From NCBI GenBank assembly GCA_963822945.1, contig CAWGJO010000027.1:64001-128000 (forward strand): a DNA stretch of 64,000 bases, read 5' to 3'. Made by a program: the position numbers and the translations under genes. Shown here piece by piece: positions 6,251-17,433 of the stretch (position 1 is the stretch's first letter; every line of letters begins with the position of its first letter). The DNA is from an uncultured Gemmatimonadaceae bacterium. Its GTDB lineage: Bacteria; Gemmatimonadota; Gemmatimonadetes; Gemmatimonadales; Gemmatimonadaceae. The notes under the pieces are model-generated. The model searched no databases. It had not been told where the DNA came from and saw only the letters and a list, made by a program, of their open reading frames with translations.

Positions 6251-7915
6251 TCAGAACCGGTAGCTCACCGACATGAAGTTCTGCGAGTTGTGGAATGCGC
6301 CGCCCATCTCGCGATACACCGACAGCATCAGGTACACGTTCCGCCCCACGGCCCAGTCGGCGTCGAAGCTGCTCCAGGTGGTGCGCGTCGAACCCAGTCC
6401 CATGCCGAGCATCGTGGCGTTGGACGTCCGGAGCCCGCCGGTGGCCTCGAGGTGCACGAGATTGAACGGGTTGATCTCAAGCGAGGCCGACTGCAGGTCG
6501 CCGCTGGAGAGCTGGCCGGTGTAGTGCGTGTCGCGGAGATGGGCGCCGAGGTCGATGGCGGTGAGCCGCATGAGGCTCACGGAGCCGGTGTACGACTGGG
6601 CGGTGCCGGCCGGGCCGCCGCTCGTGGTGCGCGCCTCGCCACTCAGCCGGAAGCGTCCCCGCAGGTTGAGGGTCGCGCCGCCCCACATGCCCTGCCGGAA
6701 GCTGTTGTCGAACACCGTCTCGGGATTCACGAAGTCGCGGTACAGGAGCACGTTCCGCCGGTTGTCGACCCCGCCGTTGAGACTGAGCGCGTCGGTGATC
6801 GTGAACTGGAAGTTGGCGAACGTCGACGTGGGCGTGGCCGCGGCGTGTTCCTGCGCCGCCTTCCACCCGCGATTGATGTCCAGTTCCTGCGTGACGTACG
6901 CCGTGAACCGCGACGATATCACCATCGCCGTGGCGTACGTGAATTCGCGGTCGATCTGGCCCAGAGTGTACGCGCCGACCCCGCCCACGGTGAACGACCA
7001 CACGGGCAGGTGCATCGACACGTTGTGCCACTGCACGTATGCCCCGTACTCGCGCGTGGAGTCGGTGAACCCGAAGTTGTACCAGCTCGGCTGCAGTCCG
7101 CCGAATGCGCCGACGCTCCAGCGCGGGTGGGCGACGTCGACCGCCACGCCGTCGAACAGCCCCACCGAACTGCTGGTGGTGGAGAACTGGCGGCCGATGG
7201 TGACCGTCGTCGCGCTCCCCAGGGGATTCCACTGCAGCGCCGCCTTGTACACCCGCGTCACGTTGAGCGGGTAGGTGGGAGCAGGATGGAGGCTGTCCGG
7301 CGGCTGCATGATCGAGCGCTGGGCGCGGACGTCGACCGCGATCCCCACCGGCGAGTCGCCCAGGTGCGTGCCGTCGAGGCGCAGGTCGAGCGCCGGCTGC
7401 GTGACCACGCCGGCCGGCCCGGTGCCGGGATCGACCATCAGGTAGCGGACCCCGAGGCGGCCGCGAAGCCGGTTGGCCGGTCGTCGGGTGAGGCCGGCGC
7501 TCGAGCGCTCGGGAAGCGTCGCCGTCGGCGTGGCCGCGACGGCCTCCACCACCGGCGCGAAGCGGGCCGAGTCGCCGGTGGCGACGGTGAGCGACGACGC
7601 GCGCACGATCGTGCACGCGGCACTGCTCGACGAGATGTACTGGACGGCCAGCTCGGCGACGAACGTCGTGTCGCGCAGCACCGTCAGATGCGCGCCCTGT
7701 TTGAGGCCGGCGCGCGTACCGGCGTCGAGGTACACCGTCGGGCCGCTGATGTAGGTCACGTGCGCCCAGGCGGTGGTCGAGTCGGCCCCGGGCGCCGCCG
7801 CCGGCGTCCGCGCGGCCGCTGGCCCGGTGACCGCCTTCTGGGCAGCCGCGGGAACACTCGCGCTGACGATGGCGAATGCCATCACAGCCAGCGGTACTCG
7901 GCGCATGGTCATCAT
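6251..7915 (-). CDS. Outer-membrane beta-barrel protein (putative porin of a porin-cytochrome complex)
   Basis: Signal peptide (MMTMRRVPLAVMAFAIVSASVPAAA-Q), alternating amphipathic strands rich in Y/F/W/G/T/S, C-terminal MSVSYRF; ATGA overlap with the upstream cytochrome. Confidence 0.8.
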   Translation of the reverse strand: MMTMRRVPLAVMAFAIVSASVPAAAQKAVTGPAAARTPAAAPGADSTTAWAHVTYISGPTVYLDAGTRAGLKQGAHLTVLRDTTFVAELAVQYISSSSAACTIVRASSLTVATGDSARFAPVVEAVAATPTATLPERSSAGLTRRPANRLRGRLGVRYLMVDPGTGPAGVVTQPALDLRLDGTHLGDSPVGIAVDVRAQRSIMQPPDSLHPAPTYPLNVTRVYKAALQWNPLGSATTVTIGRQFSTTSSSVGLFDGVAVDVAHPRWSVGAFGGLQPSWYNFGFTDSTREYGAYVQWHNVSMHLPVWSFTVGGVGAYTLGQIDREFTYATAMVISSRFTAYVTQELDINRGWKAAQEHAAATPTSTFANFQFTITDALSLNGGVDNRRNVLLYRDFVNPETVFDNSFRQGMWGGATLNLRGRFRLSGEARTTSGGPAGTAQSYTGSVSLMRLTAIDLGAHLRDTHYTGQLSSGDLQSASLEINPFNLVHLEATGGLRTSNATMLGMGLGSTRTTWSSFDADWAVGRNVYLMLSVYREMGGAFHNSQNFMSVSYRF

Positions 7916-9618
7916 CCCGACCTCCCTCTCGGGTGGCACGAATAGCAGTGGGCCGCATCGTACACGTAGCCGGACACGCCGCCATGATGCGAGTCGGTCG
8001 TGCTCTTGCCGTGGCAGCCGCCGCTCATGCAGGTGAACGCCGCGTAGTTCGACGGCGAGGTGTGGCAATCGGAGCACTGGTTCCAACGACCCTTGTGGGT
8101 GCCGGAGTAGATCGGGAAGAAGCTGTTGTCGTGGTCGAAGGTGGCTCCTGCCCAGGTGGTCGTCGTATGGCACTGTTCGCACGTCTGTCCGAATCCGGCG
8201 GCGGCGTGCGCCGGATTGTTCGTGCCGTTGTAGTCGGCCAGGTGGCAGGACACGCAGGTAGTCGGCTTGCCCTTGTACACGCCGTCACCGTGGCAGGCGG
8301 CGCAGGCAACGCTCACATGCGCGCCCGTGAGCGGGAACGCCGTGTTGTTGTGGTTGAACGTCGCGCTCGTCCAGTTCGTCGTGCTGTGGCACGTTTCGCA
8401 CGTGGTCGGGAAACCGGCCGCCACGTGGCCCGGGTTGGTCGTGGCGTTGTACTCGGTCTGATGGCACGATACGCAGAGCGTGGACTTGCCCTTGTACACG
8501 CCGTCGCCGTGGCAGGCGTTGCAGGCCACGGCCTGGTGCGCCCCGGTGAGCGGGAAGCTGGTCGTGCTGTGGTTGAACGTCGCGCTCGTCCAGTTGGTCG
8601 TGCTATGGCAGGTCTCGCAGGTGGTGGCGAAGCCGGCTGCCGCGTGGGGCGGGTCGTTGGTGTTGTTGAAGTCGGTCTGGTGGCACGACACGCAGAGCGT
8701 GGACTTGCCCTTGTACACGCCGTCGCCGTGGCAACTCTGACAGCTCGTGGTCGCGTGCACGCCGGTGAGCGGAAAGTTCGTGGCGTTGTGATCGAACGTC
8801 GCGCTCGTCCAGTTGGTCGTGCTGTGGCAGGTCTCGCACGTGGTCGGGAATCCCGAGGCGGCGTGCGGCGGGTTCGTGGTCCCGTTGTACTCCGGCTGGT
8901 GGCACGACACGCACAACTTCGACTTGCCCTTGTAGACGCCGTCGCCGTGGCAGGCGGCGCACGCGGTGGCCAGGTGGGCTCCGGTGAGCGGGAACCCGGT
9001 CAGGTTGTGATCGAAGCTCGCCCCGTGCCAGTTGGTCTCGCTGTGGCACTCGGTGCACACCTGCGGAAAGCCGCCGCCCACGTGGTCGGGGTTCTTCGCG
9101 TTCCGATAGTCGGTGGCGTGGCACCCGAAGCACATCGTTGGGCGGTTGGCGTACTGCGTCTGGCCGGGCGCCGACGGCAGATGGCAGTCCTCGCATGCGG
9201 CAATGGCGTGCGCACCGCGCAGTGGGAAGCGGGTGAGGTCGTGCATCCGGCGCATCGCGGCCGGGTCGACGAAGCTGCGTGTCGTGTGGCAGCGCGAGCA
9301 CTGGTTGCCGAACTCGCCGTGGTGCACGTCGGTGTGGCACGACGCGCAGGCCGTGGACGTGTTGGCGAAGTCGAGCGTGCGATGGCACGACGTGCACGGC
9401 GCCTTCTGATGCGCTCCCTCGAGCGGGAACACCCCCGGCGCGTGGCGGAAGTCCTTGCTGATCGCCACGGGCTTCCAGCCGTCGGCCCGGTGGCACATGC
9501 TGCAGGCGCCGATCGTGGGGCCGTGCGGGTTGTCGCCGCTCTGGGCGGCGGCGGCCGGCGCGGAGAGCGCCAACACGGCCAGCGCCAGCAGCCAGCGGGA
9601 AGCAGGGGGGAGCTTCAT
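7912..9618 (-). CDS. Secreted multiheme cytochrome c (21 CxxCH + 1 CX4CH)
   Basis: Motifs counted manually; Sec signal ending AAAA-Q; 73-aa triheme tandem repeats. Confidence 0.95.
   Translation of the reverse strand: MKLPPASRWLLALAVLALSAPAAAAQSGDNPHGPTIGACSMCHRADGWKPVAISKDFRHAPGVFPLEGAHQKAPCTSCHRTLDFANTSTACASCHTDVHHGEFGNQCSRCHTTRSFVDPAAMRRMHDLTRFPLRGAHAIAACEDCHLPSAPGQTQYANRPTMCFGCHATDYRNAKNPDHVGGGFPQVCTECHSETNWHGASFDHNLTGFPLTGAHLATACAACHGDGVYKGKSKLCVSCHQPEYNGTTNPPHAASGFPTTCETCHSTTNWTSATFDHNATNFPLTGVHATTSCQSCHGDGVYKGKSTLCVSCHQTDFNNTNDPPHAAAGFATTCETCHSTTNWTSATFNHSTTSFPLTGAHQAVACNACHGDGVYKGKSTLCVSCHQTEYNATTNPGHVAAGFPTTCETCHSTTNWTSATFNHNNTAFPLTGAHVSVACAACHGDGVYKGKPTTCVSCHLADYNGTNNPAHAAAGFGQTCEQCHTTTTWAGATFDHDNSFFPIYSGTHKGRWNQCSDCHTSPSNYAAFTCMSGGCHGKSTTDSHHGGVSGYVYDAAHCYSCHPRGRSG
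8120..9000 (-). repeat. Intragenic 219-bp tandem repeat, about 4 copies (triheme module)
   Basis: TCGCGCTCGTCCAGTT recurs at 8361, 8580, 8799 (219-nt period); protein repeat FPLTGAH..CxxCHGDGVYKGK..CVSCH..H..CETCHSTTNWTSATF.H; boundaries approximate. Confidence 0.9.
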
Positions 9619-11621
9619 GGGATTCTCCTCGGCGTGGTACCGCCATGACAGCTGGCGCAGGCGGCGGACAGCGGCCGGTAGATGACGCGGGTCTTGCCGT
9701 TGGCGACGGTCTGCGTCTTATGGCATGCCGCGCAAGCGACCTTGGCGTGGGCGCCCTTGAGCGGGAACGAGGTATCGCGGTCGTGATCGAACTTCGAGGC
9801 CGGCGTGAACGACGCGACGCCGTGGCAGGTGCCGCAGGCGTCCCCTCCCTTGCGGCCGGCGAATTGATCGCCGTGGGGATCGTCCGCCTTGTGGCACGAC
9901 TCGCAGTCGGTGGCGCGTTTCTGCGTGAACGGCAGCTTGGCCACGCCCTTCGGCGCTGCGATGAGCGTCGAGGCGGCGGCGGGACCGCGCATCTCCTCGT
10001 GACAGGCCACGCACGGCGTGGCCCGGTGGGCGCCGTCGAGCGCGAAGCTGAACTGCGCGTGCCGATCGACGTCCACCGTGGACGGGCGGAACGCGCGGGC
10101 GTTGTGGCAGGCGCCGCAGCCATCCTTCATCGGCATCGCCCCGCCCTTGAGGTAGCGCCCGCCGTGGGGATCCACGTGGCAGTCCTGGCACGCGGTCTCC
10201 GGCACCTGCAGCACCACCTTCGCCGGGCCGTACGACGCGGCGCGCTTTGGCAGCGCGGGCAGGCCGGGCCGCGTGAGCCCGTGGCATGCGGCGCACTTGA
10301 TCTTCGCGTGGCGGCCGTCGAGCGGCAGCCGCAGCTTGGCGTGCGCGGCCAGGGAGAAGGTGCTGGGCGTCCAGCCGGCATCGGTGTGGCAGGCCTCGCA
10401 GCTCCCCTTGTCGGGGCGCGACGCGAGCTGGCCGCCGTGCTGGTCGGCATGGCAGTCGGCGCACTTGGCGAACGGCATGGTCAGGCGCGTCACCGTGCCG
10501 GTGGTGGTGTGGCACGAGGCGCATTTCACGCTCGCGTGCTTGCCGGTGAGCGGATACCGGGTGGCGGCGTGCTGCGCGAGCGTGAACGTGGAGGGCGCGA
10601 ATCCCTGCACGCGGTGACAGGCGGCGCAGTCGGCGGGCTTGCCGTTGAGCACGGCCTGCCCGGCGTGCGGGTCCTTGTGGCACGACGCGCAGGTCGCGAA
10701 CGGCGGATCCTTGATCTTGAGGTTCGGTCCGTGGCAGGCGTCGCACTTCACGGTCGCGTGCTTGCCGACCAGCGGATAGCGCGTGGCCGAGTGGTCGAAG
10801 TGCGTCTGCTCGATCACGTGCCAGCCGCGCGTGGTATGGCAGTCGCTGCAGCGGCCGGCCATCCGCGTGCCGTGCGGATTGGCGTGACAGTCGGTGCAGA
10901 GCTTGAACGGCAGCGGCTTGAAGCGGGGGATCAGCTTGCCCTTGGCGTCGGGAACGATGCCGAGCGACTTCGCGAGGTGACACTCGTCGCACTTCACATC
11001 CACGTGCTTGCCGGTGAGCGGGAAGGCGCTGCTGTCGTGCACGAACTTCGGCGCCGGCTTCCACCCCTTCGAGTCGTGGCAGCGGTCGCAACTCTCGCCC
11101 AGCGAACCCTTGTGCACGTCGTCGGCGCGGTGGCAGGAGACGCACGTCGTCTCGAGCCCCACCCACCCGGCGGAACCCGTGCGCTTGGACAGCGCGGCAG
11201 CCTGACCCGTGCGGAACTTCAGCGTATGACAGTCCTCACACTTCGCCTCCGCATGCTTGCCTTCCAGCGCCCATCCGGCGAGCTGATGGTCGAACTTGTC
11301 GCGCGACCCGCCCGGCCAGGCGATGAGCTTGAAGTCCGTGCCCGCGTGGTCCGGATGGCAGCTCGCGCAGTCCTTCTTCTCCACCGTCACGACGCGCGCG
11401 TGATAGCCCCGGTTCTGGTTCAGGAGCCAGCCGATCTCCTTGTGACAGGCGAGGCACATCTGGTTCATCGGCTCGCGGTGCAGGCCGTGGCATTGGGCGC
11501 AGTTCGTCGGCCCTTCCAGGTCGTGATGCGCTCGCGCCAGCGGCCCGGGCGAGATCTGAGCACGCGCTCGCGCCGGCAGGGCCAACAGCAGCAGTCCGCA
11601 CATGAGGAGACATTTCCGCAT
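9615..11621 (-). CDS. Secreted multiheme cytochrome c (23 CxxCH)
   Basis: 23 CxxCH counted; signal peptide ending ARA-Q; diverged FPLxGxH triheme modules. Confidence 0.95.
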   Translation of the reverse strand: MRKCLLMCGLLLLALPARARAQISPGPLARAHHDLEGPTNCAQCHGLHREPMNQMCLACHKEIGWLLNQNRGYHARVVTVEKKDCASCHPDHAGTDFKLIAWPGGSRDKFDHQLAGWALEGKHAEAKCEDCHTLKFRTGQAAALSKRTGSAGWVGLETTCVSCHRADDVHKGSLGESCDRCHDSKGWKPAPKFVHDSSAFPLTGKHVDVKCDECHLAKSLGIVPDAKGKLIPRFKPLPFKLCTDCHANPHGTRMAGRCSDCHTTRGWHVIEQTHFDHSATRYPLVGKHATVKCDACHGPNLKIKDPPFATCASCHKDPHAGQAVLNGKPADCAACHRVQGFAPSTFTLAQHAATRYPLTGKHASVKCASCHTTTGTVTRLTMPFAKCADCHADQHGGQLASRPDKGSCEACHTDAGWTPSTFSLAAHAKLRLPLDGRHAKIKCAACHGLTRPGLPALPKRAASYGPAKVVLQVPETACQDCHVDPHGGRYLKGGAMPMKDGCGACHNARAFRPSTVDVDRHAQFSFALDGAHRATPCVACHEEMRGPAAASTLIAAPKGVAKLPFTQKRATDCESCHKADDPHGDQFAGRKGGDACGTCHGVASFTPASKFDHDRDTSFPLKGAHAKVACAACHKTQTVANGKTRVIYRPLSAACASCHGGTTPRRIP

Positions 11622-13050
11622 TCACCCCGCCCGCGCCTGCGATTGGGGAATCGGCACGTCCTTCTCGACGATGCGGATGCCAAGGCGTTCGAGGAACGCG
11701 TAGGGCGCCTCACCGCCGATGCGAACCACCACATAGTCGGCCGGCAGGATGCGCGACTGCCCCTCGTGCGTGAGCACCGCGACGTCGTCGCGGATCTCCT
11801 GGATCTGGCTCTTGAAGTACGGCGTCACCTTCCCGGACGCGATCGCCCGCTCGATCTTCTCGCGGTTCCGCTCGGCGATGCGCTGGAACGCGTCGCCGCG
11901 GTAGGAGAGCGCCACCGTCGTGCCTTTCTGGTTGGCGAGTCCCAGCGCCGACTCCACGGCGCTGTCGCCCCCGCCCACCACCACCATGCGCTTCCCGGCG
12001 AACGCTTCCATCTCCACGATGTCGTAGAACACGTGGTCCTTTCCCTCACCGGGCACCCCGAGCCGTCGCGGGCTGCCACGCCGCCCCATGGCGAGCACCA
12101 CGCGGCGCGCCAGATACGCGCTGTTCGCCGTCTCCACCCGGAACACGAGCCCCTCGCGCTTCACCTGCTGCACCTTCTCGCCGGTGCGCACGTCGAGGCC
12201 CGTGTCGGCGACGATGGTCTCCCACACCTGGAGCAGCGTTTCCTTGGAGCCGTCGGCCACCCACAGGTCGCCGTACATCGGGATGCGCACCGGCTCGGCC
12301 AGCAGCAGCTTGTGCCGCGGATACTTGCGCACGGTGTCGGACAGCGACCCCTGCTCCAGCACCACGTAGCTGAGGCCGGCGCGCAGCGCTTCGAGCCCGG
12401 CGCTCAGCCCCGCCGGGCCGGAACCGACGATCACCACGTCCACCGCGGCGGCCACCCCGTCGGCGCGCCGGCTCCCGGGCCGCAGCGATCGGGCCACGTG
12501 CTCCATGGCCATCTTGCCTTCGTTGACCGCGTTCTTGATCAGCCCGCGGCCGCCGAGTTCGCCCACGATGTACAGGCCCGGCACGTTGGTCTGGAAGTTC
12601 TCGTCGAGCAACGGCACGGTCACGCGGTTGACCGCGGCGCCGCGTGTCACGAGGATCGCCCCCACCGGGCATCCGCGCACGCACTCCCCATGTCCCTTGC
12701 ACAGCGCGTCGTCCACCACGGCCAGCTTGCCGCGCAGCGTGATGGCGCCCGGTTCCGGACAGGCGCCCACGCAGGTGCCGCATCCCACGCACATGTCGGC
12801 GCGCACGAGCGCCTTGGGGTCGCCGGTCGCCTCCGCCGCCGCTTTCGCCACGGGCGCCCGCACCATCTCGAACACCTGCATCGGCGCGCCGCACTTGGGA
12901 CAGGAGGCCGCGTCGGCGAGAACGGGGGCCCGGCAGCGCGGGCAGGGCACGCGGCCGCGGCTTGGCCGACGCCGGCGGCTTGGTCGCCCGCAGGTGCCAG
13001 AGAATGGCCAGCAGCGTGATGCCGAAAAAGGCGATCGTGGTCGTCGACAT
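11622..13050 (-). CDS. Membrane-anchored FAD/NAD(P)H oxidoreductase with Zn-ribbon and 2x[4Fe-4S] ferredoxin domain (apparent 1-nt frameshift near 12950-12990)
   Basis: TM segment MSTTTIAFFGITLLAILWHL starts at 13050 in a different frame from the body (11622-12950), which has CPRC..CPKC, CVGCGTCVGACP, CKGHGECVRGCP, VVIVGSGPAG and VVVGGGDSA. Confidence 0.85.
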
Positions 13051-13055
13051 GCGCG

Positions 13056-13943
13056 CTATCGGAACCAGGTGGCGCCCACGGCGACCACGACCACGACGTG
13101 GATCACCACCGCGACCAACGCGGTCAGGGCAAAGGGACGGTGGGCCACGTGCCAGTAGCGGAACACGCGGTGCGTGGCGTTGAGCATGCGCGACTGCTGC
13201 TCGAGCTTGAGTTCGAGCGTGGCCAGCCGCAGTGCTTCACGAAGCTGCTTCTCGTCGAGGCGGTGGTTACGGGGAGTCAGCGCCACCCAGCGCGCCCGCA
13301 GCTGCCGCATCCGGCGCCACCGGAAGAGATCGGCCGCGACGAGCTGCGCCAACACCCGCAGGGGATTGCCGTCGGCGTCCGAAGTCTGTCCGCCATGCAG
13401 CGTGCTCTCGAGCACCTGGGGTGTGAGCCCGGTGGCCGCCGCCAGCTTCTGGATCAGTTCGCGACGCTGGCCCGCCACCTCGTCGCGCGTCAGCTCGATG
13501 CCGCTCCGCGCGCGGGGGATGCGGGTGTAGAGATAGCGGCCCACGATGCCGCTGGCGATCACGATCATCATGGCCAGCAGGCCGAGGCCGATCACGCCGT
13601 CGGAGCGCCAGGCCGCGTGAATGGCGAGCAGCAGAGGGAGTGCGAGCGCCGTGGTCACGTGCACATCCAGCCACTTGCCGATGGATCCGGTCCACCGCAA
13701 CGCCTTCCACTTCTTCCGGAGCGGATACAGCCAGAGGAAGACGAAGATCACGAACGCGGCGATGCCGGCGGACTGACCGATGTACCCCGACGGTTGGAGC
13801 CAAGCGCGCCACGGATGGCGGGCCCGGACTTCGAGCGGTGCCGTGTAGAACGGCGCGCCGACGATGTTGATGGCGAGCAACGGCAGGCAGATCACGATCA
13901 GCGCGATCGTGCTCTTCCGAAGTCCCGAACTGGCGTCTTTCAT
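13056..13943 (-). CDS. Integral membrane protein, predicted di-heme b (ferric-reductase/cytochrome b-like)
   Basis: About 5 hydrophobic helices; two His pairs each 14 residues apart (WLDVH...LLAIH; VAH...VVIH); ATG at 13943. Confidence 0.75.
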   Translation of the reverse strand: MKDASSGLRKSTIALIVICLPLLAINIVGAPFYTAPLEVRARHPWRAWLQPSGYIGQSAGIAAFVIFVFLWLYPLRKKWKALRWTGSIGKWLDVHVTTALALPLLLAIHAAWRSDGVIGLGLLAMMIVIASGIVGRYLYTRIPRARSGIELTRDEVAGQRRELIQKLAAATGLTPQVLESTLHGGQTSDADGNPLRVLAQLVAADLFRWRRMRQLRARWVALTPRNHRLDEKQLREALRLATLELKLEQQSRMLNATHRVFRYWHVAHRPFALTALVAVVIHVVVVVAVGATWFR

Positions 13944-14126
13944 TTGCCCGGCTGGTGGGAGCGCCGGGCGAGGAGTGCGGAGGGCATGCCTCGGGCTTGC
14001 TTTGGGGGGAGTTGGCGTGCTTTGCAAAGCGGCGGCTTCGCAGCTTCGAGAATTCAGTACACGCGTCAACCGTTCTTGCTCCAAACGCGCGAACAATCGC
14101 GCTCGCAACACCGAACAAACGCCTCA

Positions 14127-14145
14127 TGTGACGCGCATCGTCACA
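14127..14145. promoter_or_regulatory. Inverted repeat TGTGACG-N5-CGTCACA, candidate operator
   Basis: Perfect 7-bp arms in the divergent intergenic region upstream of the cytochrome operon. Confidence 0.45.
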
Positions 14146-14373
14146 CTGGCGGTGCGAAGCGTCACGCGGCGGCGGGCGACAGCGCCGGCGGCCTGTGCGT
14201 GTCGGGTGACTCCCGACGCGCCGGCGGTGCGCAGGCCGGTGGCGATGCAACAGTCGATGCCGGTTTTGACAACCCTCCGCCTCCGCCGTTGATTCGACTC
14301 CGGCGCTGGCGCATCCCCCACGATCCCGCATGGCCGCGACATCGCGGAGCTTCAACACCTGTCCGGTGCATCC

Positions 14374-17300
14374 GTGCTGCTCATTCTCGCCTCCGCCTTC
14401 GTCCTGTCCGGCGCCGCCGGCCTCATCTACGAAACCATCTGGACGCGGTACCTGAGCCTGTTCGTCGGCCATGCCGCCTACGCCCAGATCATCGTCCTCA
14501 TCATCTTCCTGGGCGGCATGTCGCTCGGGGCGTTCGCGGTCGGGAAGCGGTCGTCCCGTCTGCGACAACCGCTGCTCTGGTATGCCGGTGTCGAGTTCGC
14601 GGTGGGCGCCATCGCGTTCCTGTTCCACGGCATCTTCGTGGGCACCACCAACTTCGCGTACGCCCACCTCTTTCCCCACCTGGCCGGCGGCGTCGGCAGC
14701 GTCGGCGTCATGGCGGTGCAGTGGTCGCTGGCCGCGCTGCTCATCCTCCCGCAGTCGGTGCTGCTCGGCGCCACCTTTCCACTCATGAGCGCCGGCGCCG
14801 TGCGCCTCGTCCGCGCCGAACCGGGACGGGTGCTGGGCCTGCTCTACTTCACGAACAGCATCGGCGCGGCAGCCGGCGCCCTGATCGCCGGCTTCTACCT
14901 CATCGGCGCCTTCGGGCTGCCGGGCACGCTGCTGGCCGCGGGAACGCTCAACTTCCTCGTTGCCGCCGGGGTCACGGTCGCCTCACGCGCCTTCTACGCG
15001 GCCGGCGACCCGGACGCCGAACCGCTCCCGCCTCCGCTCGAACAGAGCGACACCCGGCCTGCCGGAGTGGCGGATCCTCCTCGTCGTCAGCTTCGGCACC
15101 GCGCTCGCGTCGTTCGTCTACGAGATCGCCTGGATTCGCATGCTGTCGCTGGTGCTGGGGTCCGCCACGCACTCCTTCGAACTCATGCTTTCGGCGTTCG
15201 TGCTCGGCATCGCGCTCGGGGCCTACTGGATCCGCGGGCGCGCCGACGCGATGGAACGGCCGATGTACGCACTGGGGATGGTGCAATGGATCATGGGCGC
15301 GCTGGCCGTCGCTACCCTGCCGCTGTACATGATGTCGTTCGAATGGATGGCCGCCCTGCTCCACATGTTCGGCCGCACCGACGCCGGCTACGACGGGTTC
15401 GTGGTGTCGCGCTACCTCATCTGCCTGGCGATCATGCTCCCGGCCACCTTCTGCGCCGGGATCACGCTTCCCCTCATCACCAAGGTCCTGATCCGGCGCG
15501 GCGCCGGCGAACGCGCCATCGGTGTGGTCTACGGGGTCAACACGCTCGGCTCGATTGCCGGGGTGATCGTCGCCGGCCTGATCCTGATGCCGGTGCTGGG
15601 ACTCAAGCTGCTGCTGATGAGCGGTGCGGTGGTCGACATCGCGCTCGGCGTGATGCTGCTCCACCCGAACGTGCTCGGCGACGACCAGGGGGCGCGGCGC
15701 CGGTTCGGCTACCTCTTCGCCACCGTCGCCCTGCTGCTGTTCAACGGGATCTTCGTGCGCTTCGACCGGTGGAAGCTCTCCAGCGGCGTGTTCCGGGTGG
15801 GCCTGCTGCCCACGGCCGACATGTTCTCATTCCCCTTCTATAAGGATGGGCGCACGGCCACGGTGAGCGTGCGCCGCGACCGGTCGAACGGGTACCTCAC
15901 GCTGGCCACCAACGGCAAGCCCGACGCGTCGATGGATCCGTTCTGGGAAGACTCCACGATCGACCCCGGCGGGCTCCATGCCCTGGCCGGGGATCAGGCC
16001 ACGCAGGTGCTGCTCCCGCTCATCGGCCTGGCCCACGCGCCCGACGCGCGCGAGGTCGCGGTCATCGGGCAGGGCTCGGGAATGACGTCCAACGTCCTGC
16101 TTGGCAGTCCCCACGTGAAGCAGGTGGTGACGGTGGAGATCGAGCCGCAGATGGTGAACGCCTCGCGCGCCTTCCGCCCCGCCAACCACCGCGTGTTCGA
16201 CGACCCGCGCTCGCGCATCGTGATCGACGACGCCAAAGCGTACTTCGCGTCCTCCGGCCGCAAGTTCGACCTCATCATCTCCGAGCCGTCCAACCCGTGG
16301 GTGAGCGGGGTGTCGGGACTGTTCACCACGGAGTTCTACCACCGGGTGCGAAACAGTCTCACCGCCAACGGCGTGCTCGGCCAGTGGCTGCACCTGTACG
16401 AGATCAACGATTCGCTGGTCACATCGGTGCTCGCCGCCATCGATCGGAATTTCCGGTCGTACCAGGTGTTCTTCACCTCGAACAGCGACATCCTGATTCT
16501 CGCCACCAACCGGTCGGCGCCGCTCGTGCCCGATTGGAACGTGGTGCACTACCCGGGCGTGGCGCACGACGTACGGCGCGCGCCGCCGTTGACGCCCGAA
16601 GCGCTGAACGGCATGCGTCTGGCGGGCCGGAGCCTCCTGCATCCGTACCTGCTGGAGCACGCCCGGGTGAACTCCGACTACTTCCCGGTGCTCGACCTCG
16701 GGGCGGAACGCACGCGGTTCATGCATTCGAATGCCGTGGGGTTGGAGAATCTGGGCAAGGGCACGTTCAACGTGGTGGCCGCGACTGGCGGGGCGGCGCC
16801 AGGAGCTTCGGCACCGAGCCGCTGGCGGTGGCGCCGGAGATTCCCCGCGTGTACGACCTGGCGCTGCAGGTGCGCCTGCGCCGCGTGCTGGCCATGACGC
16901 CGGCCCAGCGCGCCGGCGTGCCGCGCGATACGGCGCTCTCCCACGCCGTGTACCGGGTGTCGCGATTCTACCAGTTGATGGCCGACGGAAAGCCGCCCAC
17001 CAGCTGGCACCGGTGGATGGCGTCGTTCACCGACGCCGAGGGACTGCTGCACGCCGGATCGGCGGGCGTGGCCGACACCGGGTTCTTCCACGCGGTGTAC
17101 GCCTACCTCGACCGGGCGCACGCGCCGTCGGACGCGCGCGCCGCCGTGGATTTCACACACGGGCTGGCCGCGTGGAACTTTCCCCAGGTCTCGCAGGCGG
17201 CCGACACGTTGATCGGCGAGTTCCTGCGCGATTCGCTGCCCTGGATCGGGATCAACGACCTCCGCAACGGCACCGTGGTCGCCCGTTTGAAACTCGGCGA

Positions 17301-17433
17301 CCTGAACGGGGCGCAACGCGCCTTCAAGGCGTTGGCTCCCGCGACGGCCCGGTCCGACTTCACCGCGCAGCTGCTGGCGGCCGACCTGGTCATGCGCCGG
17401 ATCGCCCCTGCCGACACGCTGCCGCCGCCCTGA
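14374..17433 (+). CDS. Fused membrane/spermidine synthase-like SAM-dependent transferase (apparent frameshifts near 15050 and 16790)
   Basis: SGAAGLIYETIWTRYL, LLGATFPL, LYFTNSIGA in frame 1; YEIAWIRML, IGQGSG, VEIEP, FDLIISEPSNPWVSG, LFTTEFY in frame 2; C-terminal extension in frame 3. Confidence 0.85.

What the first reader, a model, noticed from the sequence alone, without database searches (positions are those of the whole stretch)
6251..13943. Five-gene operon that could form a complete cytoplasm-to-surface electron conduit
Seen: five co-directional genes with junctions of 5 nt, 0 nt and two ATGA overlaps. In order they encode a His-pair membrane protein, a membrane-anchored FeS/FAD/NAD(P)H oxidoreductase, a 23-heme cytochrome, a 21(+1)-heme cytochrome and an OM beta-barrel. 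Known: porin-cytochrome conduits (MtrCAB, Geobacter Pcc, PCC3-type clusters) move electrons across the outer membrane, and the characterised ones are fed from the quinone pool (e.g. CymA, ImcH, CbcL). Inference: this operon instead carries its own NAD(P)H-FAD-[4Fe-4S]-heme b input, resembling a split NADPH-oxidase/ferric-reductase module wired to about 45 c-hemes and a porin. That would couple cytoplasmic NAD(P)H directly to extracellular acceptors or donors. I do not know of a characterised system with this architecture. Direction and substrate cannot be read from sequence.
Basis: partly seen in the sequence, partly recalled or inferred. Interest (0 to 1): 0.92.

Follow-up and report, generated by a model that had tools for sequence, protein, structure and literature searches.

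The report
NADPH-fed PCC3 cytochrome wire operon
These five genes most likely build a wire of about 45 haems that carries electrons from cytoplasmic NADPH to the cell surface; four match the predicted but untested "PCC3" system, and the fifth, a flavin/iron-sulfur enzyme, looks like an overlooked core part of PCC3 that suggests the wire exports electrons rather than taking them up from iron.

Summary
The operon is real: junctions, haem counts (23; 21+1) and a 22-strand barrel check out. Gene 2 carries an unreported one-base frameshift (12951), most likely an assembly error. Four genes are homologues of PCC3 (He et al. 2017; predicted, untested): the membrane protein has the exact signature, and cytochrome 1 and the barrel align with PCC3-type proteobacterial counterparts. 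The flavoprotein (anchored, circularly permuted YpdA/TrxR-like, two Fe-S motifs, NADPH-type) is not a local add-on. It co-occurs with the membrane protein in 65 of 67 genomes of this phylum (Gemmatimonadota by homologue names) and 42 of 46 PCC3-type genomes of a proteobacterial class, whatever the gene order. A look-alike, Slit_0866, lies beside the published Sideroxydans PCC3 cluster; no searched paper names it. Best reading (0.55): a split NOX/MsrQ-like input exports NADPH electrons through two b haems and the c-haem wire. By my energetic argument the membrane potential favours that direction, so it would be an electron sink or surface reductase, not an Fe(II) oxidase. Binding, cofactors, direction and acceptor are inferred only. 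This scan found the same module before on at least eight other genomes.

The parts
13056..13943 (-). PCC3-type inner-membrane protein (IMP), 295 aa, five membrane helices, two W-x3-H-x13-H motifs (H95/H109, H268/H282), SGxxG, and a basic helical domain of about 115 residues between helices 4 and 5; predicted di-haem b
   Evidence: Four His invariant in 89 homologues at 23-79% identity; both motifs in 84 of 89, SGxxG in 88 of 89; signature as defined in PMC5566968; model pLDDT 80; weak sub-cut-off Ferric_reduct hits in 21 of 89 and Ni_hydr_CYTB in 20 of 89 members
12952..13050 (-). N-terminal membrane anchor of the flavoprotein (out of frame with the body in this assembly)
   Evidence: Translation; in frame with the body in G012, G001, G009 and others
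12951..12951 (.). One extra base causing a frameshift in gene 2; most likely assembly error
11622..12950 (-). Flavoprotein body, 442 aa: zinc ribbon, two [4Fe-4S]-type motifs (second with His in place of Cys2), circularly permuted YpdA/TrxR-like FAD/NAD(P)H fold without a redox CxxC
   Evidence: Pfam Pyr_redox_3 E 9e-46, Fer4, Zn ribbon; TIGR04018 YpdA 176 bits, below cut-off 340; residues 170-430 match YpdA 4-272 and 112-134 its C-terminal part; motif counts
9615..11621 (-). Cytochrome 1, 23 CxxCH, Sec-type signal by eye, basic (86 K+R, 57 D+E); homologue of the PCC3 periplasmic cytochrome
   Evidence: 33% identity over 675 columns, E 3e-82, to the 24-haem cytochrome beside the IMP in L170, including the non-repeat N-terminus; 23 haems in 68 of 114 ORFs of this class in L015-L148, counts including fragments
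7912..9618 (-). Cytochrome 2, 21 CxxCH + 1 Cx4CH, built of 73-residue three-haem repeats, T/S/A/G-rich (41%); counterpart of the PCC3 'extracellular' cytochrome, likely the barrel partner
   Evidence: haem number ranges from 7 to 84 among relatives; repeated or moved together with the barrel gene in L045, L053, L063, L070, L076, L126
6251..7915 (-). Outer-membrane protein, 554 aa: small N-terminal beta domain (about 49-119), linker, 22-strand beta-barrel ending YRF; distant homologue of PCC3-type porins
   Evidence: AlphaFold2 model pLDDT 83; fold matches only OM barrels; family profile versus 15 PCC3-type porins: probability 97.96%, E 2.9e-13, 389 columns, reversed control 0.37%

Best explanation
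A five-subunit PCC3 conduit that exports electrons from cytoplasmic NADPH to the cell surface. (1) The anchored flavoprotein sits on the cytoplasmic face, takes a hydride from NADPH on FAD and passes single electrons to its two Fe-S clusters, like a TrxR-type ferredoxin-NADP reductase fused to its ferredoxin (domains shown; cofactors and chemistry inferred). (2) An Fe-S cluster, plausibly the His-ligated one, reduces the inner haem b of the IMP, docking on the IMP's basic cytoplasmic domain; two b haems carry the electron across the membrane as in NOX, ferric reductases and MsrQ (His pairs shown; haems, topology and docking inferred). (3) The fixed-length 23-haem cytochrome spans the periplasm; the variable-length cytochrome 2 sits in or beyond the 22-strand barrel and reaches outside (barrel modelled; locations inferred). 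(4) Moving electrons outward is helped by the membrane potential and spends it, so the system is a redox sink or surface reductase for Fe(III), humic quinones, other cells or O2, not an energy-conserving chain (inferred from recalled potentials). In this assembly gene 2 is frameshifted, most likely by error.
For: Co-occurrence of IMP and flavoprotein in the same 301 genomes of the phylum: both 65, IMP only 2, flavoprotein only 4, neither 230; in 400 genomes of the class of G325 (a Thiogranum record): both 42, PCC3-type IMP only 4, flavoprotein only 3. Flavoprotein within the region in 40 of 40 IMP-anchored regions, IMP in 47 of 48 full-flank flavoprotein-anchored loci, with gene order shuffled. 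Same five genes, same order, on an Emticicia (Bacteroidota) plasmid. PCC4-type IMP loci carry an unpermuted TrxR-cNMP-FeS version (6 of 10 regions), and some IMPs are fused to Fe-S domains. Anchor upstream of the Fe-S motifs in 144 of 151, Tat-like motif in 0 of 151; NADPH-type Tyr-Arg loop in 144 of 154; His in motif 2 in 143 of 143 parsed. Positive-inside charges put IMP loop 2 and the large domain inside. In Sideroxydans ES-1 both PCC3 clusters are lower on Fe(II) than on thiosulfate (PMC8788666), and flavoprotein Slit_0525 is within about twofold of IMP Slit_1446 and porin Slit_1449 in iBAQ. Precedent: MsrQ is fed by a cytosolic NADH oxidoreductase, and its ubiquinone is not the donor (PMC12525009 abstract).
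Against: No biochemistry exists; co-occurrence shows a shared pathway, not direct electron transfer. No true IMP-flavoprotein fusion was found: P0144 and P0269 contain out-of-frame stretches. Fold searches do not single out NOX or cytochrome b: SpNOX Z 8.2 and CybB Z 8.1 tie with unrelated helical bundles, and PDB sequence search was empty. The published model has the IMP exchanging electrons with quinones. The second ES-1 cluster has no flavoprotein next to it (Slit_1445 HD hydrolase, Slit_1450 aldolase), and G622, G534, G561 and G724 have a PCC3-type IMP without a permuted flavoprotein found with this query. The IMP gene of PCC3 copy 2 rose in Sideroxydans CL21 cells able to oxidise iron, and Slit_0525 rose in late cultures on two of three magnetites, which fits uptake as well as export. 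Kin are not independent in the counts. The export route of cytochrome 2 is unknown (no lipobox by eye).
Confidence: 0.55

Rival explanations
1. Quinone-linked conduit (He et al. model): the IMP exchanges electrons with the quinone pool, and the flavoprotein is a side branch (an NADPH:quinone feeder, a reductive activator, or a redox sensor) that does not hand electrons straight to the wire.
For: Published hypothesis based on likeness to cytochrome b (PMC5566968); weak Ni_hydr_CYTB hits in 20 of 89 members; FdnI and CybB among the tied fold matches; MsrQ binds ubiquinone too; a few PCC3-type genomes lack the permuted flavoprotein.
Against: A quinone-fed wire needs no dedicated cytoplasmic NADPH enzyme, yet the two genes travel together in 65 of 67 and 42 of 46 genomes, and PCC4-type clusters carry a differently built version. 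G000 has other quinol-type multihaem modules (NapC/NirT-like, cytochrome b).
Confidence: 0.22
2. Inward conduit: electrons from an outside donor (Fe(II) minerals, cathodes, reduced humics, partner cells) run down the wire and reduce NADP+ or ferredoxin through the flavoprotein.
For: PCC3 is common in iron oxidisers (PMC9900912); IMP copy 2 rose in iron-oxidising CL21 cells; Slit_0525 higher in late cultures on two of three magnetites than on Fe-citrate; TrxR-type FNRs are reversible (recalled).
Against: Inward transfer works against the membrane potential and towards a -320 mV acceptor, so the donor would need about -450 mV or lower, below usual Fe(II) couples (recalled values; no coupling pump is encoded in the cluster). 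ES-1 PCC3 genes fall on Fe(II). Hosts include lineages not known for lithotrophy.
Confidence: 0.1
3. Export stops short of a mineral: the cytochromes store charge or supply reductant in the periplasm or at the surface (repair, assimilatory metal reduction, or NOX-like superoxide production), and the barrel is a secretion or anchoring pore for cytochrome 2.
For: NOX/MsrQ-like input; hosts with haem-copper oxidases (G000); extreme variation in cytochrome 2 length; a few loci with IMP, flavoprotein and cytochrome 1 but no barrel or cytochrome 2 within 10 kb (L096, L127, L133); the barrel is no closer to MtrB (Z 14.8) than to TonB-dependent receptors (Z 18.1).
Against: Barrel and cytochrome 2 are kept in 38 of 40 IMP-anchored regions and are duplicated as a pair; a 45-haem wire is costly for a periplasmic service.
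Confidence: 0.1
4. In this particular strain the frameshift is real, so the flavoprotein is made without its anchor (from the GTG at 12950) or not at all, and the operon is decaying or altered.
Against: Absent from four relatives and a near-identical contig; part of a run of five lone insertions in 4 kb that also break the next gene; a second haem-copper oxidase gene in G000 is also in pieces.
Confidence: 0.08

Closest known systems
PCC3 porin-cytochrome cluster (He et al. 2017, PMC5566968; Sideroxydans ES-1 Slit_0867-0870 and Slit_1446-1449), predicted and untested
   Same: IMP of about 300 aa with two W-x3-H-x13-H motifs and SGxxG; a 21-24-haem-class cytochrome next to it; a repeat-built T/S/A/G-rich cytochrome of variable length; a homologous barrel; order IMP, cytochrome, cytochrome, porin.
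   Different: Described as four genes fed from quinones, in Proteobacteria. Here the flavoprotein lies inside the operon; the barrel protein is shorter (554 aa against about 690-1000 aa frames, with a small beta domain instead of the SPOR/TPR region); the host phylum is different. The flavoprotein is also beside most proteobacterial clusters, usually divergent, which the searched papers do not mention.
PCC4 cluster (He et al. 2017)
   Same: Related IMP signature; porin and multihaem cytochromes; accompanied by 'other redox-active proteins', which in loci fetched here are TrxR-like flavoproteins fused to cNMP and Fe-S domains.
   Different: 4-, 5- and 10-haem cytochromes; soluble 800-aa unpermuted flavoprotein with two cNMP domains; no anchor seen in L182.
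MsrPQ with its cytosolic flavin reductase; bacterial NOX (SpNOX); ferric reductases (FRD superfamily)
   Same: Cytosolic NAD(P)H flavoenzyme feeding a His-pair haem b membrane protein that delivers electrons to the outside face.
   Different: No Fe-S relay, TrxR-type fold, multihaem wire or barrel in those systems; MsrQ uses FMN; the IMP reaches no FRD cut-off and has a 115-residue insert.
YpdA/Bdr bacillithiol disulfide reductase and TrxR-type ferredoxin-NADP reductase (PDB 7A76, 7A7B, 3AB1, 2ZBW)
   Same: Best sequence matches of the flavin domain (E 1e-28 to 3e-18); no redox CxxC.
   Different: Circularly permuted, membrane-anchored, fused to two Fe-S motifs and (in 12 of 154) a zinc ribbon; below the NCBIfam cut-off.
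MtrCAB and Geobacter Pcc conduits
   Same: Barrel plus periplasmic and outer multihaem cytochromes.
   Different: No sequence membership (DmsE and MtrC models far below cut-off; no family hit for the barrel); fed from quinol by CymA, ImcH or CbcL (recalled).

Membership tests
PCC3 | Conserved IMP of about 300 aa, five helices, two W-x3-H-x13-H motifs, SGxxG | tested here: met
   295 aa; motifs at W91/H95/H109, S131, W264/H268/H282; five membrane helices in the model; the family profile finds proteobacterial IMPs at E to 1e-55
PCC3 | Periplasmic multihaem cytochrome (median 21 haems, 22-39 aa per haem) | tested here: met
   23 haems, 29 aa per haem; end-to-end homology with the IMP-adjacent 24-haem cytochrome of L170. 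Location itself judged from the signal peptide by eye
PCC3 | Second large cytochrome, repeat-built and rich in T/S/A/G | tested here: met
   73-aa repeats, 41% T+S+A+G, 27 aa per haem; 25-31% identity to the large cytochromes of PCC3-type loci, repeats inflate such matches
PCC3 | That second cytochrome is extracellular | not testable with these tools
   No localisation predictor or experiment; Sec signal, no lipobox by eye
PCC3 | Outer-membrane beta-barrel porin with many strands, homologous to PCC3 porins | tested here: met
   22-strand model; profile-profile probability 97.96%, 389 columns, against porins of PCC3-type loci; 14 such porins outrank every other ORF of G000 among 7709. Window-family alignment alone gave only 54%
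PCC3 | Gene order IMP, periplasmic cytochrome, extracellular cytochrome, porin | tested here: met
   Same order as Slit_1446-1449, with the flavoprotein between genes 1 and 2
PCC3 | Direct comparison with the named reference proteins (Slit_0867-0870, Slit_1446-1449) | not tested
   Full sequences were not held; the comparison used unnamed proteobacterial loci that fit the published definition, and peptides listed in a supplement
PCC4 | Three cytochromes with 4, 5 and 10 haems | tested here: not met
   23 and 21+1 haems
FRD/NOX superfamily | Ferric_reduct domain (PF01794) above cut-off or a distinct fold match | tested here: inconclusive
   No hit for the window protein; weak hits in 21 of 89 homologues, best E 1.5e-4; SpNOX Z 8.2, rmsd 3.5, 118 aligned, tied with unrelated bundles
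FRD/NOX superfamily | FNR-type (ferredoxin reductase superfamily) FAD/NADPH dehydrogenase domain | tested here: not met
   The partner is a TrxR/YpdA-type flavoprotein with Fe-S motifs
YpdA/Bdr | TIGR04018 cut-off and unpermuted soluble architecture | tested here: not met
   175.6 bits against 339.9; permuted order in 151 of 154 family ORFs, 3 unparsed
MtrCAB / DmsEF | Decahaem MtrA/DmsE and MtrB-family porin | tested here: not met
   TIGR03508 63 and 29 bits against 192; no NCBIfam or Pfam hit for the barrel

The most novel reading that the evidence does not exclude
PCC3, now treated as a candidate iron oxidase, is really a five-subunit bacterial 'trans-envelope NADPH oxidase': a quinone-independent wire that uses the membrane potential to push low-potential NADPH electrons across both membranes to minerals, humics, partner cells or O2. 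It would be a third class of extracellular electron transfer input, present in about a fifth of the Gemmatimonadota genomes sampled and in soil Acidobacteriota, Bacteroidota, Calditrichota, Ignavibacteria and Proteobacteria.
Probability: 0.4. Interest if true: 0.88.

Novelty: new variant of a known kind. Interest (0 to 1): 0.64.

Why it matters
Characterised Gram-negative conduits draw on the quinone pool (recalled). A conduit wired to NADPH would let many soil and sediment bacteria dump or deliver strongly reducing electrons outside the cell without respiring, and would change how PCC3 genes are read in metagenomes: as reduction or redox-balance markers instead of iron-oxidation markers. It would explain why PCC3 is not induced by Fe(II) in Sideroxydans ES-1. 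It is directly testable in cultured strains (ES-1; Emticicia oligotrophica DSM 17448, where the cluster is on a plasmid beside a cytochrome c maturation gene).

Tried and rejected
Complex prediction of barrel with cytochrome 2, using the same-genus pair of G005: no verdict (runs 0.52, 0.29, 0.26; mark 0.32); not used either way. A structural prediction of the IMP with the flavoprotein was not obtained, so that contact stays open. Fold searches of the IMP model: Foldseek no match at E 0.001; VIA-align ties among helical bundles; PDB profile search nothing below E 0.86. ESM Atlas: IMP hits only unnamed clusters; barrel N-domain best 0.87, FlgT_C 0.76, leads only. Search for true IMP-flavoprotein fusions among longer proteins: 9 hits; the flavoprotein-containing one looks like a frameshift artefact, five are IMP-FeS fusions. 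Expression: two RNA runs laid (X16, X17) gave only 158-182-nt contig pieces, no evidence of transcription or habitat. Promoter/terminator scan: nothing above shuffles. First related-locus scan with the wide IMP alignment could not be run for lack of conserved words. All-against-all neighbour clustering timed out and was read from partial output, 143 query loci. IMP and flavoprotein distances correlate (r 0.72, 136 loci) but shared ancestry explains this; not counted. ES-1 protein co-variation (flavoprotein with porin r 0.95, with IMP 0.82, with one control 0.71) has one control and hand-copied numbers; only the abundance match is used. Ten literature searches found no paper describing the flavoprotein with PCC3; Slit_0866 and Slit_0525 had 0 full-text hits. 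Rejected: 'categorically new' (four genes are PCC3 homologues); 'true pseudogene' as main reading; YpdA thiol reductase as function.
Full report
OBSERVATION. The five genes are on the minus strand at 13943-13056, 13050-11622, 11621-9615, 9618-7912 and 7915-6251, with junctions of 5 nt, 0 nt, ATGA and ATGA. Cytochrome 1 has 23 CxxCH; cytochrome 2 has 21 plus one Cx4CH. The window has one extra base at 12951 relative to G012, G001 and G009 (two of the five relatives were given in the wrong orientation there and are uninformative), G006 and a near-identical contig of run X2. Against G012 (94.8% over 20 kb) there are five lone one-base insertions from 12951 to 16804; three break the adjacent gene that is a single 1042-aa frame in G012. 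Assembly error is the likely cause. Homologue names point to Gemmatimonadota.

THE PARTS. Membrane protein (IMP): no family above cut-off. Four His are invariant in 89 homologues at 23-79% identity, arranged as two W-x3-H-x13-H motifs (84 of 89) with SGxxG (88 of 89). This is the signature He et al. give for the PCC3/PCC4 IMP, which they read as a di-haem b protein like the ferric reductase domain (PMC5566968). The model (pLDDT 80) has five membrane helices and a helical insert. Mean K+R and D+E of 5.8 and 0.1 in loop 2, against 1.1 and 0.1 in loop 3, place loop 2 and the insert inside, so each His pair would span the membrane (inference). Fold searches were inconclusive. Flavoprotein: zinc ribbon, two ferredoxin-type motifs, and a Pyr_redox_3 domain closest to YpdA/Bdr and TrxR-type ferredoxin-NADP reductases. 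The segment that is C-terminal in YpdA lies before the first Rossmann motif, so the fold is circularly permuted (151 of 154 family ORFs). His replaces the second Cys of motif 2 in 143 of 143 parsed ORFs (11 of 154 unparsed), and an Arg-bearing loop typical of NADPH binding (motif meaning recalled) is in 144 of 154. A hydrophobic segment precedes the Fe-S motifs in 144 of 151 and no Tat-like motif was seen. These ORFs include kin and three genomes fetched twice. Cytochrome 1 is basic and nearly fixed in size (17, 20 or 23 haems); cytochrome 2 is built of 73-residue repeats and ranges from 7 to 84 haems. Barrel: model pLDDT 83 with a small N-terminal beta domain and 22 strands; matches are OM barrels, MtrB among them but not first.

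DISTRIBUTION. In 301 genomes of the phylum the IMP profile hit 67 and the flavoprotein 69; 65 have both. I fetched 40 of the 80 IMP places, chosen for contig room: all 40 have the flavoprotein and both cytochrome types, 38 the barrel, and the two without are at contig ends. A scan of GTDB with the flavoprotein found at least 589 places and returned the best 80: mostly Acidobacteriota and Gemmatimonadota records, also Calditrichota, Ignavibacteriales, Bacteroidetes and Pseudomonadota. IMP in 74 of 80, and in 47 of 48 with both 10-kb flanks; all five in 37 of 48, most misses being cytochrome 1 beyond the flank. Gene order is shuffled in at least four ways, and cytochrome 2 moves or duplicates with the barrel while cytochrome 1 stays with IMP and flavoprotein. 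An Emticicia oligotrophica plasmid has all five in the window's order beside ccsA.

RELATION TO PCC3. In 400 genomes of the class of G325 (a Thiogranum record) the IMP profile hit 65; the flavoprotein hit 59 of 401. These two tallies include G364, an unpublished genome; no other claim rests on it. I fetched 40 of the 78 IMP places. Thirty are PCC3-type: IMP, a 21- or 24-haem-class cytochrome, usually a larger variable cytochrome, and where the region reaches it a large porin. This is the order of Slit_1446-1449. Twenty-five of the 30 have the same permuted flavoprotein within the region (one truncated, one split), mostly divergent from the IMP; four of the other five have it elsewhere in the genome, two on the same contig 11 and 18 kb away. 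By genome: 42 both, 4 IMP only, 3 flavoprotein only. Cytochrome 1 aligns end to end with the IMP-adjacent cytochrome. The barrel family matches those porins at probability 97.96% over 389 columns, reversed control 0.37%; the narrower alignment gave only 54%. The other ten places are PCC4-like or smaller clusters; six have an unpermuted 800-aa TrxR-cNMP-FeS protein. [quoted passage not shown] Their listed peptides match family motifs by eye against L170; full sequences were not seen. Slit_0866 and its cluster are scarce; Slit_0525 is about twice as abundant as IMP Slit_1446 and porin Slit_1449. So the operon is a PCC3 cluster, and the flavoprotein looks like a fifth core gene of PCC3.

MECHANISM. 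Shown: domains, motifs, barrel model, genetic linkage. Inferred: NADPH to FAD to two Fe-S clusters to two b haems to cytochrome 1 to cytochrome 2 in or beyond the barrel. The nearest working precedent is MsrQ, where a cytosolic NADH oxidoreductase feeds the haem and ubiquinone is not the donor (PMC12525009, abstract). On direction, from recalled values (NADP+/NADPH -320 mV; membrane potential roughly 120-180 mV, negative inside): outward transfer is downhill and potential-assisted but spends proton-motive force; inward transfer to NADP+ needs a donor near -450 mV or lower. Export is therefore favoured, as a sink or surface reductase. In line with this, both ES-1 PCC3 clusters were lower on Fe(II) than on thiosulfate and after an Fe(II) spike (PMC8788666). 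Against it: CL21 raised its IMP copy 2 when able to oxidise iron, Slit_0525 rose late on two of three magnetites, no true IMP-flavoprotein fusion was found, and four genomes have a PCC3-type IMP without the permuted flavoprotein with this query. G000 encodes cytochrome c maturation, a haem-copper oxidase, PntB transhydrogenase (a possible NADPH source), a NiFe hydrogenase and other multihaem clusters with quinol-type inputs, so it reads as a facultative organism with several electron routes. The acceptor cannot be read from sequence.

WHAT IS IN PRINT. PMC5566968: passages, sections 15 and 16 whole, supplement files Image1 (Figure S1 text only), Table 4 (legend only) and Table 6. It defines PCC3 as four genes; for PCC4 and porin-less clusters it lists 'other redox proteins' without an NAD(P)H reading in what I saw. 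Its Supplementary Figure 4 was not in the text held, Table 4 is a picture, and Tables 3 and 5 were not opened; they may bear on novelty. Passages only: PMC9900912, PMC7399161, PMC11429942, 10.1101/2025.02.27.639646 (supplements not seen), PMC8788666 (supplement rows 78), PMC13386937, PMC13013709, PMC6344600, PMC5615132. Supplement rows only: PMC12016527. Abstract only: PMC12525009. The 2025 CL21 paper calls PCC3 a functionally unverified four-gene cluster. Ten searches found no description of the flavoprotein with PCC3; the library lacks most subscription papers.

EARLIER SCAN NOTES. My reading was recorded, before any note was seen. One search listed eight notes on other genomes with the same reading; they are not independent support. 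What I tested beyond their summaries is that PCC3-type proteobacterial clusters, and apparently the ES-1 reference cluster, carry the flavoprotein too, and that the barrel is homologous to PCC3-type porins.

VERDICT. Real feature; PCC3 member in a variant layout; the unreported part is the conserved NADPH-type input and what it implies for direction. Interest 0.64.

Noticed in passing
window 14374-17433 (+): Membrane protein fused to a spermidine-synthase-like domain, split into three frames by one-base insertions at 15061, 16785 and 16804; one 1042-aa frame in G012. Likely assembly errors.
   Followed up: partly
G000:C22:75755-86200 (L192): Second multihaem cluster: 11-haem protein with cytochrome b561-type partner, 14-haem protein, a 584-aa gene between them, 21-haem NapC/NirT-like protein, cytochrome b fused to 9 haems (split in the assembly), probable Rieske piece; looks like a quinol-oxidising Cbc-like module.
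   Followed up: partly
G000:C26:12861-24000 (L193): Two octahaem probable lipoprotein cytochromes and a 518-aa protein without family hit (possible porin) between hydrogenase maturation and NiFe hydrogenase genes; the 16 CxxCH counted downstream were not resolved as a gene.
   Followed up: partly
L160:5929-7992 (-) and 26 other proteobacterial loci: A Sel1 plus ankyrin-repeat protein of about 690 aa is conserved beside PCC3-type clusters (27 loci in partial clustering); possible sixth accessory gene.
   Followed up: partly
L085:609-1493 (+) and about 50 mostly Acidobacteriota loci: A conserved 295-aa, probably secreted protein without Pfam or NCBIfam hit lies between barrel and IMP genes.
   Followed up: partly
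L182:10472-12901 (-), L181, L183, L185, L188, L190: PCC4-type and 9-10-haem IMP clusters carry a TrxR-like flavoprotein fused to two cyclic-nucleotide-binding domains and Fe-S motifs, hinting at nucleotide control of electron input.
   Followed up: partly
P0410, P0411, P0412, P0414, P0415: Natural fusions of an Fe-S (and cNMP) domain to an IMP-family membrane domain.
   Followed up: partly
L137, L171, L156, L107: Cytochrome 2 homologues with 84, at least 85, 69 and 69 CxxCH motifs in one frame.
   Followed up: no
L038-L040, L042, L052, L055, L069: In family f2 genomes a further cluster of 16-, 18- and 8-haem cytochromes with ccmE lies next to the five-gene module.
   Followed up: no
L028:8866-21450 (Emticicia plasmid NC_018749.1): The module sits on a 100-kb plasmid with its own ccsA and an ECF sigma factor, so it can move; cytochrome 2 has 40 haems.
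   Followed up: partly
G000:C21:266000-284000 and 320000-332000 (L194, L195): Lower GC3 and Myxococcota-looking genes around 13- and 10-haem proteins (impression only); C21 may be foreign to the bin.
   Followed up: no
PMC13013709: A Lentimicrobium MAG with adjacent 61- and 20-haem cytochromes and a porin, said to lack synteny to known modules, enriched on conductive carbon; may be this family, not tested.
   Followed up: no
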